Shown here: in pieces, positions 5,091 to 48,709 of the stretch
How the letters are laid out: every line of letters starts with the position of its first letter
Position numbering within the stretch: the first letter of the stretch is position 1
NCBI RefSeq assembly: GCF_055900595.2
Contig: NZ_CM148325.1
Reading direction: 5' to 3' (one strand)
Length of the DNA stretch: 64,000 nt
Translations under genes and position numbers: made by a program
The notes under the pieces: model-generated
Databases searched by the model: none
What the model saw: only the letters and a program-made list of their open reading frames with translations
What the model was told of the DNA's origin: nothing

Positions 5091-6353
5091 TTACTCCGCC
5101 ACACTCTCACGCAGCGGTTTCACAGGAAAAACTTTTACCTGCTTAATCATATTGTCCTGTACATCGAGAATATCGATATCGTACTCGCCAATACGCACGC
5201 GAGTTCCTGCGACAGGAATTTCTTCCAGTACTTCAAGAATGACGCCATTAACCGTGCGGGCATCATCTTCCGGTAGATGCCAGTTAAAGGCTTTGTTGAT
5301 TTCCCGCACGTTGGCAGTGCCATCGATAATCACCGAACCGTCGTTTTGCGGCGTGACCTCTTCGGCGAGCGTTGGCGACATCGACGTGGTGAAATCACCA
5401 ACAATCTCTTCGAGAATATCTTCGACCGTCACCAGCCCCTGAATGTCTCCATACTCGTTGACGACCAGGCCGACTTTCTTTTTGTTACGCTGAAACTTCA
5501 CCAACTGTGTGCTGAGCGGCGTACCCTCCGGGACAAAATAGATCTCGTCCGCGGCGCGTAGCATGGTTTCTTTGGTGAACTCTTTTTTCTCCGACATGAG
5601 TCGCCAGGCTTCACGCACACGCAGCATACTGATGGCGTCGTCCAGCGAGTCACGGTAGAGCACGATGCGTCCGTGAGGTGAGTGGGAGAGTTGGCGGAGA
5701 ATCGATTTCCAGTCATCGTTGATATCAATACCGATAATTTCACTACGTGGCACCATGATGTCATCGACGGTCATTTTTTCCAGATCGAGTACCGACAACA
5801 GCATATCCTGATTGCGACGGGAAATTTGTGACCGCGATTCGTGCACAATGGTGCGTAATTCTTCTTTGCTTAAAGAGCCACTGACCACGATATCGGTTTT
5901 GATGCCCATCATGCGCATTAACATGCGGGTAATAGCGTTTAGCAACCAGACCAGCGGCATCATCAAAATTTGCAGCGGTGCCAGCAGAAAACTACTTGGA
6001 TAGGCGACTTTTTCCGGGTACAGCGCGGCAATGGTTTTCGGCAATACTTCAGCAAAAACCAGTACGACAAAAGTAAGCACACCAGTCGCAATTGCCACGC
6101 CCGCATCCCCGTACAAACGCATCCCCACAATAGTGCCGAGCGCGGAGGCAAGAATATTGACCAGGTTATTGCCGATTAACACCAGGCTTATCAGGCGGTC
6201 TGGCTTACGCAGCAATTTTTCGACACGTTTGGCCGAGCGATTACCCTGTTTCGCCATATGCCGCAGACGATAGCGGTTGAGGGTCATCATTCCGGTTTCG
6301 GACCCGGAAAAATAGGCTGAAATGACCACCATGATGATCAGAATAATGATCAA
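5091..6353 (-). CDS. yfjD: Inner membrane protein YfjD (DUF21 transmembrane + CBS pair + CorC/HlyC transporter-associated domain)
   Basis: 420-aa ORF, hydrophobic N-terminus, recognised YfjD/CorB-like sequence. Confidence 0.88.
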   Translation of the reverse strand: MIIILIIMVVISAYFSGSETGMMTLNRYRLRHMAKQGNRSAKRVEKLLRKPDRLISLVLIGNNLVNILASALGTIVGMRLYGDAGVAIATGVLTFVVLVFAEVLPKTIAALYPEKVAYPSSFLLAPLQILMMPLVWLLNAITRMLMRMMGIKTDIVVSGSLSKEELRTIVHESRSQISRRNQDMLLSVLDLEKMTVDDIMVPRSEIIGIDINDDWKSILRQLSHSPHGRIVLYRDSLDDAISMLRVREAWRLMSEKKEFTKETMLRAADEIYFVPEGTPLSTQLVKFQRNKKKVGLVVNEYGDIQGLVTVEDILEEIVGDFTTSMSPTLAEEVTPQNDGSVIIDGTANVREINKAFNWHLPEDDARTVNGVILEVLEEIPVAGTRVRIGEYDIDILDVQDNMIKQVKVFPVKPLRESVAE

Positions 6354-6397: not shown

Positions 6398-7189
6398 TTA
6401 GCTGATTAACTGCTGGACAATTCGGCTACCGAAGTAGGCCAGTGTCAGAATGACCGCTCCCGCAACGTTAAACCAGACGACGCGGCGTCCACGCCATCCT
6501 TCATGATAATGTCCCCACAGCAGCACAATATAGACAAACCACGCCACGATAGAGAGCACGGCCTTGTCGATATTTTCCATGCTAAATAAGTTGTGCATGT
6601 AGAAGAGACCAGTGCAAAGAGTGAGCGTTAACAGCACCACGCCAATCTGCGTGATGTGGAACATTTTACGCTCGATACTCATCAACGGCGGCATTTCTTG
6701 GTTAAACGCCAGCTTCTTGTTCTTCAGTTGGTAATCAATCCACGCCAGTTGTAATGCATACAGAGCGGCGATAATCAGCGTGGCATAGGAAAAGAGCGAT
6801 AAGCCAATGTGAACCAGCATCCCAGGCGTTGCTTCCAGATGGGTGATGTATTCATTGGGCATAAAGGTGGCCAGCGCCAGGTTGATAAGCGCAAAGGCAT
6901 AGACAATGGGTAGCAGTAACCAGCCACGATTGCGGGAAGCCACGATGGTCATTACCGTACAGATCATCAAACTGACCAGCGAACCAACGTTCAGTAAGCT
7001 GAGGTTTTGTCCGCTATCACCGTCGGGCAAGATACGGGCTTCCAGAGCGATTGCGTGGCAGACCAGCGCGATGACCGCAGAAATAATAGCCATGCGCCGC
7101 CAGCCGCCGTTTTTTTGCAGCAGACCGGGAACAATCAGCGCAAGACTGACGGAGTAGGCGACAAGCGCGAGCAGAGCAAAAACGGGCAT
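6398..7189 (-). CDS. ypjD: Inner membrane protein YpjD (cytochrome c assembly protein-like family)
   Basis: Polytopic membrane ORF; start taken at MPVFALLALV (263 aa); ORF track extends to 7264. Confidence 0.8.
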   Translation of the reverse strand: MPVFALLALVAYSVSLALIVPGLLQKNGGWRRMAIISAVIALVCHAIALEARILPDGDSGQNLSLLNVGSLVSLMICTVMTIVASRNRGWLLLPIVYAFALINLALATFMPNEYITHLEATPGMLVHIGLSLFSYATLIIAALYALQLAWIDYQLKNKKLAFNQEMPPLMSIERKMFHITQIGVVLLTLTLCTGLFYMHNLFSMENIDKAVLSIVAWFVYIVLLWGHYHEGWRGRRVVWFNVAGAVILTLAYFGSRIVQQLIS

Positions 7190-39064: not shown

Positions 39065-39754
39065 TTACTCACTCTCTGCCGGTAATACTGGCATCCAGTC
39101 AATCGGTTTCTCGCCACGTTGTTCCAGCCACTGATTTGCCAGCACAAAATGATTGCAGCCAAAGAATCCACGATGTGCAGAAAGCGGCGATGGATGCGGC
39201 GCTTTCAGTACGTGATGGCGTTGCTTATCTATAATCGCTCCTTTCTTTTGCGCATGTGATCCCCACAACAAAAACACCACGCCTTCGCGGTGCTGGTTAA
39301 TCAGGCTGATGACTTTGTCGGTGAAGGTCTCCCAACCGAGGCTGGCGTGGGAATGCGCCTGACCTGCGCGAACCGTCAAGACGGTATTGAGCAGCAGAAC
39401 GCCCTGACGCGCCCAGCTTTCAAGATAACCATGATTAGGGCGGGTGAAGCCGGGAATAGTATTTTCGAGCTCTTTATACATATTCAGCAGTGACGGCGGT
39501 GTCGCAATGCCGGGGCGAACGGAAAATGCCAGACCATGCGCCTGTCCCGGTCCGTGATAAGGATCCTGACCGAGGATCACCACTTTAACGTCACCCAACT
39601 CTGTAAAGCGGAAGGCGTTAAAGACATCTTTTTGTGGTGGATAGATAGTGACGCCGGACTGCCGCTCGCTGGCGACGGTCTGAAGGGTATTAAGAAAATA
39701 GGGTTGCTGCTTCTCTTCAGCCAGCACATCATGCCAGGTTAATTCGTTAGCCAT
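39065..39754 (-). CDS. ung: Uracil-DNA glycosylase
   Basis: [20 protein letters not shown]...[18 protein letters not shown], 229 aa. Confidence 0.96.
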
Positions 39755-39884
39755 CTCGCTCTCCTGCGAATCTTCAATCCGCCTAGCTTAACTGCTTCTT
39801 TCTACAGAACAAAACCAAGCTCATTTTTTAGACTTTAATGAGTGCAAAAAAATGTAAATTGGTAAAATTTCACACCCGTATAAG

Positions 39885-39951
39885 TTGATGTAAAACAATA
39901 AAATCCATTTGCGAGCACACTTGATGCGTGGTTTTTATTGATTTAAATCAA
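39885..39951 (+). promoter_or_regulatory. Two FNR/CRP-family binding sites in the grcA (yfiD) promoter
   Basis: ttgatgtaaaacaa (39885-39898) and perfect ttgatttaaatcaa (39938-39951), TTGAT-N4-ATCAA, centres 53 bp apart. Confidence 0.75.
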
Positions 39952-40058
39952 AGAATCAAGGGTGTTTGAGGAGTATATATACACTCAAGCAACAATGGTT
40001 TTACCAATTGGCCGCGACAGGCTAAACAAATCAAATAATTTTGCCGGGGAGGCATCAC

Positions 40059-40442
40059 ATGATTACAGGTATCCAGATTACTAAAGCTGCTAATGACGAT
40101 CTGCTGAACTCTTTCTGGCTGCTGGACAGCGAAAAAGGCGAAGCGCGTTGCATCGTTGCGAAAGCAGGTTTTGCAGAAGACGAAGTGGTTGCAGTAAGCA
40201 AACTGGGTGACATTGAATACCGTGAAGTTCCAGTAGAAGTTAAACCAGAAGTTCGCGTTGAAGGTGGTCAGCACCTGAACGTAAACGTTCTGCGTCGTGA
40301 AACTCTGGAAGATGCAGTTAAGCATCCGGAAAAATATCCGCAGCTGACCATCCGTGTATCCGGTTATGCAGTTCGCTTTAACTCTCTGACTCCGGAACAG
40401 CAGCGCGATGTTATCGCTCGTACCTTTACTGAAAGCCTGTAA
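40059..40442 (+). CDS. grcA: Autonomous glycyl radical cofactor GrcA (YfiD)
   Basis: [28 protein letters not shown]...[13 protein letters not shown], 127 aa; ORF-track start at 40041 is a TTG upstream. Confidence 0.95.
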
Positions 40443-40497
40443 GGTTTAAGTAGCAAGTTACTAAGCGGAAGAGGGCGACCTCTTCCGCTTTTTTTCA

Positions 40498-41085
40498 TTA
40501 ACAGAAAATGCGCACCGCGCAATAGACCAGCAACAACGCCAGCACGATATTTAACTGGCGACCATACTGGCGAAACAATCGCTGAAACAGGTGCCCCGCC
40601 AGCGCCCAGCACACATTGCCAAAGGTCCCAATCATTGCCAGCAAAACGCTGACGCCAATCACCCAGCTTAACGCCTGCGTTTGTGGCAGGACAAATGTCG
40701 ACAGTGCTGTAATGCCGTACAAAATAATTTTGACGTTCACAAACTGCAAAGCAAAGCTGGCCCAAAAGCTGATCGGTTTGGCCTGAAGTCCGTCTTCCTT
40801 GGTTGGACTGGTAGCGATTTTCCACGCCAGCCAGACAATATATGCTGCTCCTGCCCAACTCAAAAGGTGCACCGCTGCCGGGTCGATAACAGCCAGTGAA
40901 AATGAAATTCCTGCACACAGTAACATCACAATCAAAAATCCCAGACTCATCCCTGCCAGCACGCGGGTACTCCGACGAAATCCATGCGACGTGGCAGAGC
41001 TAAGAGCGAGTATATTGTTTGGTCCTGGCGTCAGGGCGGTAATCAGGGTGTAGGTCCAAAAAGCACTTAAAAGGGTCGGTGTCAC
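40498..41085 (-). CDS. eamB: Cysteine/O-acetylserine efflux protein EamB (YfiK), LysE/RhtB family
   Basis: 195-aa polytopic membrane ORF. Confidence 0.9.
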   Translation of the reverse strand: MTPTLLSAFWTYTLITALTPGPNNILALSSATSHGFRRSTRVLAGMSLGFLIVMLLCAGISFSLAVIDPAAVHLLSWAGAAYIVWLAWKIATSPTKEDGLQAKPISFWASFALQFVNVKIILYGITALSTFVLPQTQALSWVIGVSVLLAMIGTFGNVCWALAGHLFQRLFRQYGRQLNIVLALLLVYCAVRIFC

Positions 41086-47753: not shown

Positions 47754-48709
47754 TGAAGCAACTTTGGTTTGCCATGTCATTAGTGACAGGTAGCCTGTTA
47801 TTCTCTGCTAACGCCTCGGCCACTCCCGCGTCCGGGGCGTTATTACAGCAGATGAACCTGGCCAGTCAGTCACTGAATTACGAGCTGTCATTCATCAGCA
47901 TCAATAAACAGGGTGTTGAGTCTCTGCGTTATCGACATGCACGCCTCGATAACCGTCCTCTTGCACAATTGTTGCAAATGGATGGCCCGCGCCGGGAAGT
48001 GGTACAGCGCGGCAATGAAATCAGCTACTTTGAACCGGGCCTTGAACCGTTCACGCTTAATGGCGATTACATTGTTGATTCTCTGCCATCGCTCATCTAT
48101 ACCGATTTCAAACGCCTTTCTCCTTACTACGACTTTATCTCCGTGGGACGCACGCGTATTGCTGATCGTCTTTGCGAAGTCATTCGCGTGGTGGCCCGTG
48201 ATGGCACACGCTACAGCTACATCGTGTGGATGGACACCGAATCGAAATTACCGATGCGGGTTGATCTCCTTGATCGCGATGGTGAAACGCTGGAACAATT
48301 TCGCGTGATTGCTTTTAACGTTAATCAGGATATCAGCAGCAGTATGCAGACGCTGGCGAAAGCAAATCTGCCGCCGCTGCTTTCTGTTCCTGTAGGTGAA
48401 AAAGCTAAATTCAGCTGGACGCCAACCTGGTTGCCACAGGGGTTTAGTGAAGTTTCCAGCAGCCGACGTCCGTTACCGACGATGGACAACATGCCTATCG
48501 AATCACGTCTCTATTCCGACGGATTATTCAGCTTCTCGGTAAACGTTAACCGCGCTACGCCATCGAGCACCGATCAGATGTTGCGCACCGGACGCAGAAC
48601 CGTCAGTACAAGCGTACGTGATAACGCCGAAATCACCATTGTCGGCGAACTGCCGCCGCAAACGGCGAAACGCATTGCCGAGAATATTAAGTTCGGGGCA
48701 GCGCAATGA
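47753..48709 (+). CDS. rseB: Sigma-E regulatory protein RseB
   Basis: 318 aa with signal peptide. Confidence 0.95.
   Translation: MKQLWFAMSLVTGSLLFSANASATPASGALLQQMNLASQSLNYELSFISINKQGVESLRYRHARLDNRPLAQLLQMDGPRREVVQRGNEISYFEPGLEPFTLNGDYIVDSLPSLIYTDFKRLSPYYDFISVGRTRIADRLCEVIRVVARDGTRYSYIVWMDTESKLPMRVDLLDRDGETLEQFRVIAFNVNQDISSSMQTLAKANLPPLLSVPVGEKAKFSWTPTWLPQGFSEVSSSRRPLPTMDNMPIESRLYSDGLFSFSVNVNRATPSSTDQMLRTGRRTVSTSVRDNAEITIVGELPPQTAKRIAENIKFGAAQ

What the first reader, a model, noticed from the sequence alone, without database searches (positions are those of the whole stretch)
39885..39951. Two FNR-type sites centred 53 bp apart upstream of grcA
A perfect TTGATTTAAATCAA and a second TTGATGTAAAACAA match the FNR consensus and are positioned about 5 helical turns apart, suggesting one activating and one modulating site for the anaerobically induced glycyl-radical cofactor gene.
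Basis: partly seen in the sequence, partly recalled or inferred. Interest (0 to 1): 0.2.

Follow-up and report, generated by a model that had tools for sequence, protein, structure and literature searches.

The report
Known tandem FNR sites at grcA promoter
The two sequence motifs are real, but they are the well-studied pair of binding sites for the oxygen sensor FNR in the E. coli grcA (yfiD) promoter, described in 1998, so the finding is correct but ordinary.

Summary
TTGATGTAAAACAA lies at 39885-39898 and the perfect TTGATTTAAATCAA at 39938-39951, with centres 53 bp apart, in the ung-grcA spacer of an E. coli chromosome.

They are the only intergenic FNR-type sites in the 64 kb window. Both 14-mers are identical in K-12.

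Published K-12 data map onto them exactly:
- Myers et al. 2013 list both 14-mers under an FNR ChIP-seq peak.
- The transcription start implied by Park et al. 2013 corresponds to window 39985, and sigma-70 ChIP peaks fall within 1 bp of it.
- This places the sites at -40.5 and -93.5, the positions named in Green, Baldwin and Richardson 1998.

According to that literature, FNR at -40.5 activates and FNR at -93.5 down-regulates, so expression peaks under micro-aerobic conditions.

My own comparison adds support. 61 of 65 Enterobacterales species keep the pair at 53 or 52 bp. Both sites carry about 1.8 bits per core position, against 0.57 in the spacer between them. The upstream site's distance to the divergent ung gene varies widely.

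The promoter is already known and the interest is low.

The parts
39885..39898 (+). Upstream FNR site (FNR II, centred at -93.5): TTGATGTAAAACAA, with a degenerate right half-site. It is the down-modulating site.
   Evidence: Sequence. It is identical in K-12, where Myers 2013 Table S6 lists it as TTGTTTTACATCAA at 2714632 with score 13.87. It is conserved at 1.80 bits per core position. It lies 53 or 52 bp from the proximal site in 61 of 65 Enterobacterales. Its function comes from the literature.
39938..39951 (+). Proximal FNR site (FNR I, centred at -40.5): the perfect TTGATTTAAATCAA. It is the class II activating site.
   Evidence: Sequence. Myers 2013 Table S6 lists it at 2714579 with score 17.25, and the main table gives yfiD as -40.5. 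It is conserved at 1.86 bits per core position.
39974..39979 (+). Probable -10 hexamer TATATA (inferred).
   Evidence: Its first base is 29.5 bp from the proximal site centre, which is class II geometry. A TATA-initial hexamer sits at this offset in all 61 Enterobacterales loci that carry the pair, and the block is conserved in the footprint. The strict consensus scan found no promoter, as expected for an activator-dependent promoter.
39985..39985 (+). Transcription start (+1), mapped from the K-12 literature.
   Evidence: Park 2013 give the ArcA site 2714524-2714555 as -10/+22, which implies +1 at 2714545. That maps to window 39985. The sigma-70 ChIP-seq peaks at 2714544 and 2714546 map to 39986 and 39984.
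39975..40006 (+). Published predicted ArcA site of three direct repeats, spanning -10 to +22.
   Evidence: Park 2013 supplement: TGGTAAAACCATTGTTGCTTGAGTGTATATAT at 2714524-2714555, under an ArcA ChIP peak. Coordinates mapped.
39994..40008 (+). PdhR-type box AATGGTTTTACCAAT, about +10 to +24. This is a probable repressor site.
   Evidence: It has 1 mismatch to ATTGGT-N3-ACCAAT and is the only 1-mismatch match in the window. The GGTTTTACC core is conserved in the footprint. PdhR repression of yfiD is published (Wyborn 2002, cited). Assigning this box as the PdhR site is my inference.
40059..40442 (+). grcA (yfiD) coding sequence, 127 aa plus the stop codon.
   Evidence: TIGR04365, E 4e-70. Annotated as grcA in E. 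coli records.
40463..40490 (+). Intrinsic terminator-like hairpin after grcA.
   Evidence: 12-pair stem with 7 G-C pairs, followed by a T run.

Best explanation
This is the E. coli grcA (yfiD) promoter, with its two known FNR sites at -40.5 and -93.5.

Under low oxygen, dimeric [4Fe-4S]-FNR binds the perfect proximal site, which overlaps the -35 region, and activates RNA polymerase as a class II activator. When FNR activity is high (full anaerobiosis), the weaker upstream site also fills. It lies 53 bp away, about five helical turns, so it is on the same face of the DNA. FNR bound there dampens activation by the proximal FNR. As a result, grcA peaks under micro-aerobic conditions, when its product is needed to rescue oxygen-damaged pyruvate formate-lyase. 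ArcA and PdhR add further control over the start region.

Shown here: the sites, their spacing, their identity with K-12, their position relative to the published start, and their conservation. Taken from the literature: FNR occupancy, activation, and down-regulation by the upstream site. Inferred: that this non-K-12 strain behaves the same way.
For: - Sites and spacing.
- The window is an E. coli chromosome. The spacer is present in 5425 of 5426 complete genomes. Both 14-mers are invariant in divergent E. coli. The window differs from K-12 at 10 of 307 spacer positions, none of them in the sites or the -10.
- Myers 2013 (PMC3688515): both 14-mers are listed in Table S6, 53 bp apart. The FNR ChIP peak is at 2714607 (Table S5), yfiD is scored as 'Activated' (Table S8), and the main table gives -40.5.
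- Start site: 2714545 maps to window 39985, from Park 2013, and the sigma-70 peaks lie within 1 bp of it.
[quoted passage not shown] PMC10208419 reports that deleting the upstream site gives stronger fully anaerobic activity, and that the wild-type promoter is most active micro-aerobically. PMC3181329 lists yfiD as FNR (+/-), ArcA (+), PdhR (-).
- Conservation: the pair sits at 53 or 52 bp in 61 of 65 Enterobacterales species, against 0.15% by chance per locus. The sites carry 1.8 bits per core position against 0.57 in the spacer. A TATA hexamer lies at the class II offset in all 61.
- The upstream site's distance to ung ranges from 112.5 to 299.5 bp, while the site-to-site distance is fixed.
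Against: - Nothing substantive.
- I could not read the primary papers (Green 1998, Marshall 2001, Wyborn 2002), so the mechanism rests on how open-access papers summarise them.
- No direct genome-wide start-site table listing grcA was found. The start comes from offsets in Park 2013 and from the sigma-70 ChIP peaks.
- The mapped +1 is a T, which is unusual for a start, so it may be off by 1-2 bp.
- ArcA is called an activator by Wyborn 2002 but scores as a repressor in Park 2013.
- The experiments were done in K-12, not in this strain.
Confidence: 0.95

Rival explanations
1. The upstream site serves the divergent ung promoter rather than grcA. Alternatively, it is shared between the two.
For: The site lies 137.5 bp upstream of the ung start codon, in a shared 304 bp spacer. 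ChIP tables label the peak 'yfiD/ung'.
Against: Across 61 species, the distance from the site to the ung start ranges from 112.5 to 299.5 bp (sd 29), while its distance to the proximal grcA site is 53 or 52 bp in every case. The published mutational work assigns it to yfiD. In the passages I retrieved from the Myers 2013 differential-expression tables, which surround yfiD, ung does not appear. I did not search for ung by name.
Confidence: 0.04
2. The upstream 9-of-10 match is a chance or vestigial motif with no function, and only the perfect proximal site matters.
For: Sites with at most 1 mismatch are not enriched in the window overall: 5 against 2.6 expected. The spacer is AT-rich.
Against: The site is conserved at 1.80 bits per core position, against 0.57 in the flanking spacer. 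It sits at a fixed offset in 61 of 65 species. Published deletion and mutation of the site changes expression.
Confidence: 0.01
3. The upstream site is a second, synergistic activator site, as seen with tandem CRP sites near -90 at some promoters, rather than a down-modulator. Alternatively, the motifs are CRP sites rather than FNR sites.
For: The same-face spacing of about five turns is also used by synergistic tandem CRP promoters. This rests on general knowledge, and on PMC3445967, which discusses both outcomes.
Against: PMC3445967 states that at yfiD the upstream FNR suppresses activation, and removing the site raises anaerobic activity. Both half-site cores read TTGA, the FNR type, not GTGA, the CRP type (the discrimination rule is established knowledge). 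FNR ChIP confirms occupancy.
Confidence: 0.02

Closest known systems
E. coli K-12 yfiD (grcA) promoter with FNR sites at -40.5 and -93.5 (Green, Baldwin and Richardson 1998; Marshall et al. 2001; Wyborn et al. 2002)
   Same: It is the same locus (ung-grcA-eamB-yfiE). Both 14-mers are identical, as are the 53 bp spacing, the -10 region and the distance to the start codon.
   Different: Ten substitutions in the 307 bp spacer, all outside the sites and the -10. The nearest is 39955 A instead of T, 4 bp downstream of the proximal site. The window comes from a less-sampled E. coli lineage: only 11 of 5425 genomes are at least 99% identical in the spacer.
Simple class II FNR-activated promoters with one site near -41.5 (for example narG, dmsA, nirB)
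   Same: A consensus TTGAT-N4-ATCAA overlaps the -35 region, the core promoter is weak, and induction is anaerobic (table).
   Different: grcA has a second, weaker FNR site five turns upstream that lowers activity when FNR is fully active. The result is a micro-aerobic optimum rather than a plain anaerobic switch.
Tandem CRP-dependent promoters, in which upstream CRP enhances or represses depending on position (PMC3445967)
   Same: Two sites for a CRP/FNR-family dimer lie on the same DNA face, and the upstream one modulates the class II one.
   Different: At yfiD the upstream protein is FNR, and its repression is reported not to involve the alpha subunit C-terminal domain (alpha-CTD).

Membership tests
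Class II FNR-activated promoter | A DNA site matching TTGAT-N4-ATCAA | tested here: met
   A 10-of-10 match at 39938-39951. It is the only perfect match in the window, against 0.06 expected.
Class II FNR-activated promoter | Site centred about 41.5 bp (39.5-42.5) upstream of the transcription start, overlapping the -35 region | tested here: met
   The published K-12 start, 2714545, maps to window 39985, so the centre at 39944.5 is at -40.5. The sigma-70 ChIP peaks map to 39984-39986. A conserved TATA hexamer lies 29.5 bp from the centre. The start was not measured in this strain.
Class II FNR-activated promoter | FNR occupies the site in vivo and expression depends on FNR | not testable with these tools
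   Published for K-12, which has identical site sequences: FNR ChIP-seq/chip peak at 2714607, yfiD 'Activated' (Myers 2013 Tables S5 and S8), and a ChIP-chip peak in Grainger 2007.
yfiD/grcA tandem-FNR promoter (-40.5 / -93.5) | A second FNR site 53 bp upstream of the class II site | tested here: met
   Centres at 39891.5 and 39944.5. The same pair is listed for MG1655 at 2714632 and 2714579. It is conserved in 61 of 65 Enterobacterales.
yfiD/grcA tandem-FNR promoter (-40.5 / -93.5) | The upstream site is weaker than the proximal one | tested here: met
   9 of 10 against 10 of 10 consensus matches. Published matrix scores are 13.87 against 17.25. The degenerate right half (AACAA or AACAT) is present in 52 of 61 species. 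Binding affinities were not measured here.
yfiD/grcA tandem-FNR promoter (-40.5 / -93.5) | Occupation of the upstream site lowers FNR-dependent activation, giving a micro-aerobic maximum | not testable with these tools
   Literature only. The primary papers are not held in the library.
Autonomous glycyl radical cofactor GrcA (TIGR04365) | The protein scores above the curated cutoff of the equivalog model over its full length | tested here: met
   233.9 bits against a cutoff of 170. Residues 2-127 align to model positions 1-126 of 126.

The most novel reading that the evidence does not exclude
The promoter itself is not novel. The most novel reading the data still allow concerns its evolution.

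First, the degenerate right half of the upstream site (AACAA or AACAT in 52 of 61 species) may be kept weak by selection, so that the micro-aerobic optimum is a conserved, tuned trait across Enterobacterales.

Second, Pasteurellaceae have rebuilt the grcA promoter. Their two FNR-type sites lie about 42-44 bp apart, at about 35.5 and 77.5 bp from a conserved extended -10 (TGATAAAAT). That layout may give a different oxygen-response logic.
Probability: 0.35. Interest if true: 0.2.

Novelty: already known. Interest (0 to 1): 0.06.

Why it matters
The architecture is a textbook example of how two sites for one oxygen sensor turn a simple on/off switch into a response that peaks at intermediate oxygen. 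It has also been reused as a tool for oxygen-controlled expression in metabolic engineering (PMC10208419).

Finding it again in another E. coli genome adds nothing new. The only modest additions here are:
- the measurement that the 53 bp spacing and the weak upstream half-site are kept across 61 of 65 Enterobacterales species;
- the observation that Pasteurellaceae use a different layout.

Tried and rejected
- **Strict sigma-70 consensus scan of 39700-40550:** it found no promoter. This is not evidence against one, because the scan requires a T at position 6 of the -10 and the promoter is activator-dependent.
- **Rfam scan at permissive E-value:** only two chance-level eukaryotic miRNA matches, 22.7 and 17.7 bits against gathering scores of 100 and 86. 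There is no known RNA element in the leader or spacer.
- **Primary literature:** Green 1998 and Ogasawara 2007 are not held.
- **Literature searches:** one search for a primer-extension report returned nothing, one was rejected for syntax, and one returned mostly irrelevant hits.
- **Genome-wide start-site tables:** the supplements of PMC7815308 and PMC10301672 do not list grcA.
- **Third TTGAT half-site at 39921-39925, between the two sites:** rejected as a site. It has no matching right half, it is TCGAT in a B strain and in another lineage, and that stretch is poorly conserved.
- **Second PdhR-like half-site (ATTGGT at 39858-39863):** rejected. It does not match the full box within 2 mismatches and is poorly conserved.
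- **Other FNR-like matches at 5899, 6672 and 47891:** all lie inside long ORFs and are treated as chance.

Full report
**1. Observation**

Reading the window gives TTGATGTAAAACAA at 39885-39898 and TTGATTTAAATCAA at 39938-39951. The centres are at 39891.5 and 39944.5, 53 bp apart, which is about 5.05 helical turns.

The second site is a perfect match to the FNR consensus TTGAT-N4-ATCAA. It is the only perfect match in 64 kb, against 0.06 expected.

With one mismatch allowed there are five matches against 2.6 expected, so the count alone is unremarkable. The other three lie inside long ORFs. The pair is therefore the only intergenic occurrence.

**2. Context**

The window is an E. coli chromosome. 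The 304 bp spacer is present once in 5425 of 5426 complete E. coli genomes. The flanking genes are:
- ung, 39065-39754, minus strand;
- grcA, 40059-40442, plus strand (TIGR04365, E 4e-70);
- eamB;
- a LysR-family gene, yfiE.

grcA is the current name of yfiD.

**3. Comparison with K-12 and the literature**

Both 14-mers are invariant in divergent E. coli lineages, although the 39 bp between them carries several substitutions. The window differs from MG1655 at 10 of 307 spacer positions. None of these is in either site or in the -10 region.

Myers et al. 2013 (PMC3688515) provide the following:
- Table S6 lists both motifs in MG1655: 2714579 TTGATTTAAATCAA (score 17.25) and 2714632 TTGTTTTACATCAA (score 13.87). 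I verified these coordinates on the K-12 sequence.
- Table S5 reports an FNR ChIP peak at 2714607.
- Table S8 classifies yfiD as FNR-activated.
- The main table places the site at -40.5.

Grainger et al. 2007 also found an FNR ChIP-chip peak at yfiD/ung.

**4. Transcription start**

Park et al. 2013 (PMC3798270) give their ArcA site, 2714524-2714555, as -10/+22 relative to the yfiD start. That fixes +1 at 2714545 in U00096.2, which maps to window 39985.

The proximal site is therefore centred at -40.5 and the distal one at -93.5. These are the numbers in the title of Green, Baldwin and Richardson 1998.

Two further observations agree:
- Sigma-70 ChIP-seq peaks at 2714544 and 2714546 map to window 39986 and 39984.
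- A TATATA hexamer at 39974-39979 starts 29.5 bp from the proximal centre, which is the class II geometry.

I found no direct genome-wide start-site table that lists grcA.

**5. Mechanism (from the literature)**

- PMC10208419 reports that deleting the upstream site gives stronger activity under full anaerobiosis. It also reports that the wild-type promoter is more active micro-aerobically than anaerobically, citing Marshall et al. 2001.

The primary papers are not in the library.

**6. New comparative evidence**

I fetched grcA loci from 80 species.
- Among 65 Enterobacterales, 55 have two FNR-type sites exactly 53 bp apart and 6 have them 52 bp apart. The chance of a site with at most 2 mismatches at that offset is about 0.15% per locus.
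- In a gapless footprint of 56 sequences, the core positions carry 1.80 bits (upstream site) and 1.86 bits (proximal site). The spacer between them carries 0.57 bits.
- The upstream site keeps a degenerate right half, AACAA or AACAT, in 52 of 61 species. This is consistent with a deliberately weaker site.
- A TATA-initial hexamer lies at the class II offset in all 61.
- The distance from the upstream site to the ung start codon ranges from 112.5 to 299.5 bp, while the site-to-site distance is fixed. The upstream site therefore belongs to the grcA promoter and not to ung.

**7. Other elements of the promoter**

- A PdhR-type box, AATGGTTTTACCAAT, lies at 39994-40008, about +10 to +24. Its core is conserved. 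This fits the published PdhR repression of yfiD.
- The predicted ArcA site from Park 2013 maps to 39975-40006.
- A terminator-like hairpin follows grcA at 40463-40490.
- Rfam finds nothing relevant.

**8. Verdict**

The feature is the long-known tandem-FNR promoter of yfiD/grcA, so its novelty is 'already known' and its interest is low.

The only mildly new points are the breadth of conservation of the 53 bp layout and the different layout in Pasteurellaceae.

Noticed in passing
L045-L075 (Pasteurellaceae grcA loci), 200 bp upstream of grcA: Pasteurellaceae do not have the 53 bp layout. Most have two FNR-type sites about 42-44 bp apart, centred about 35.5 and 77.5 bp from a conserved extended -10-like TGATAAAAT. 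These offsets do not fit a standard -41.5 class II position.
   Followed up: partly
L051, L066, L072 (Pantoea) and L078 (Plesiomonas MAG), upstream of grcA: These four Enterobacterales loci lack the pair at 52 or 53 bp. The three Pantoea loci have a single FNR-type site 82-108 bp from the ATG. L078 has one at -83.5 and a weak 2-mismatch match at -39.5.
   Followed up: no
window 39994-40008: A PdhR-type palindrome, AATGGTTTTACCAAT, lies just downstream of the grcA start and has a conserved core. It overlaps the ArcA site predicted by Park 2013 at 39975-40006.
   Followed up: partly
window 39834-39852: A moderately conserved AT-rich block (TTTAATGAGTGCAAAAAAA) lies upstream of the distal FNR site and has no assigned function. 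It could belong to the divergent ung promoter or be an IHF or ArcA site. Myers 2013 Table S6 notes IHF ChIP-chip signal over this region.
   Followed up: no
window 39755-40058: The spacer is at least 99% identical in only 11 of 5425 complete E. coli genomes, and 95-99% identical in most. The window therefore comes from a less-sampled lineage. It is 100% identical to strain Z0117EC0005, isolated from a dog.
   Followed up: no
window 39975-40006 (literature): The sign of ArcA control of yfiD differs between sources. Wyborn 2002 is cited as showing activation, while the Park 2013 supplement scores the effect as negative.
   Followed up: no
window 5899-5912, 6672-6685, 47891-47904: Three further one-mismatch matches to the FNR consensus all lie inside long ORFs and are probably chance.
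   Followed up: partly
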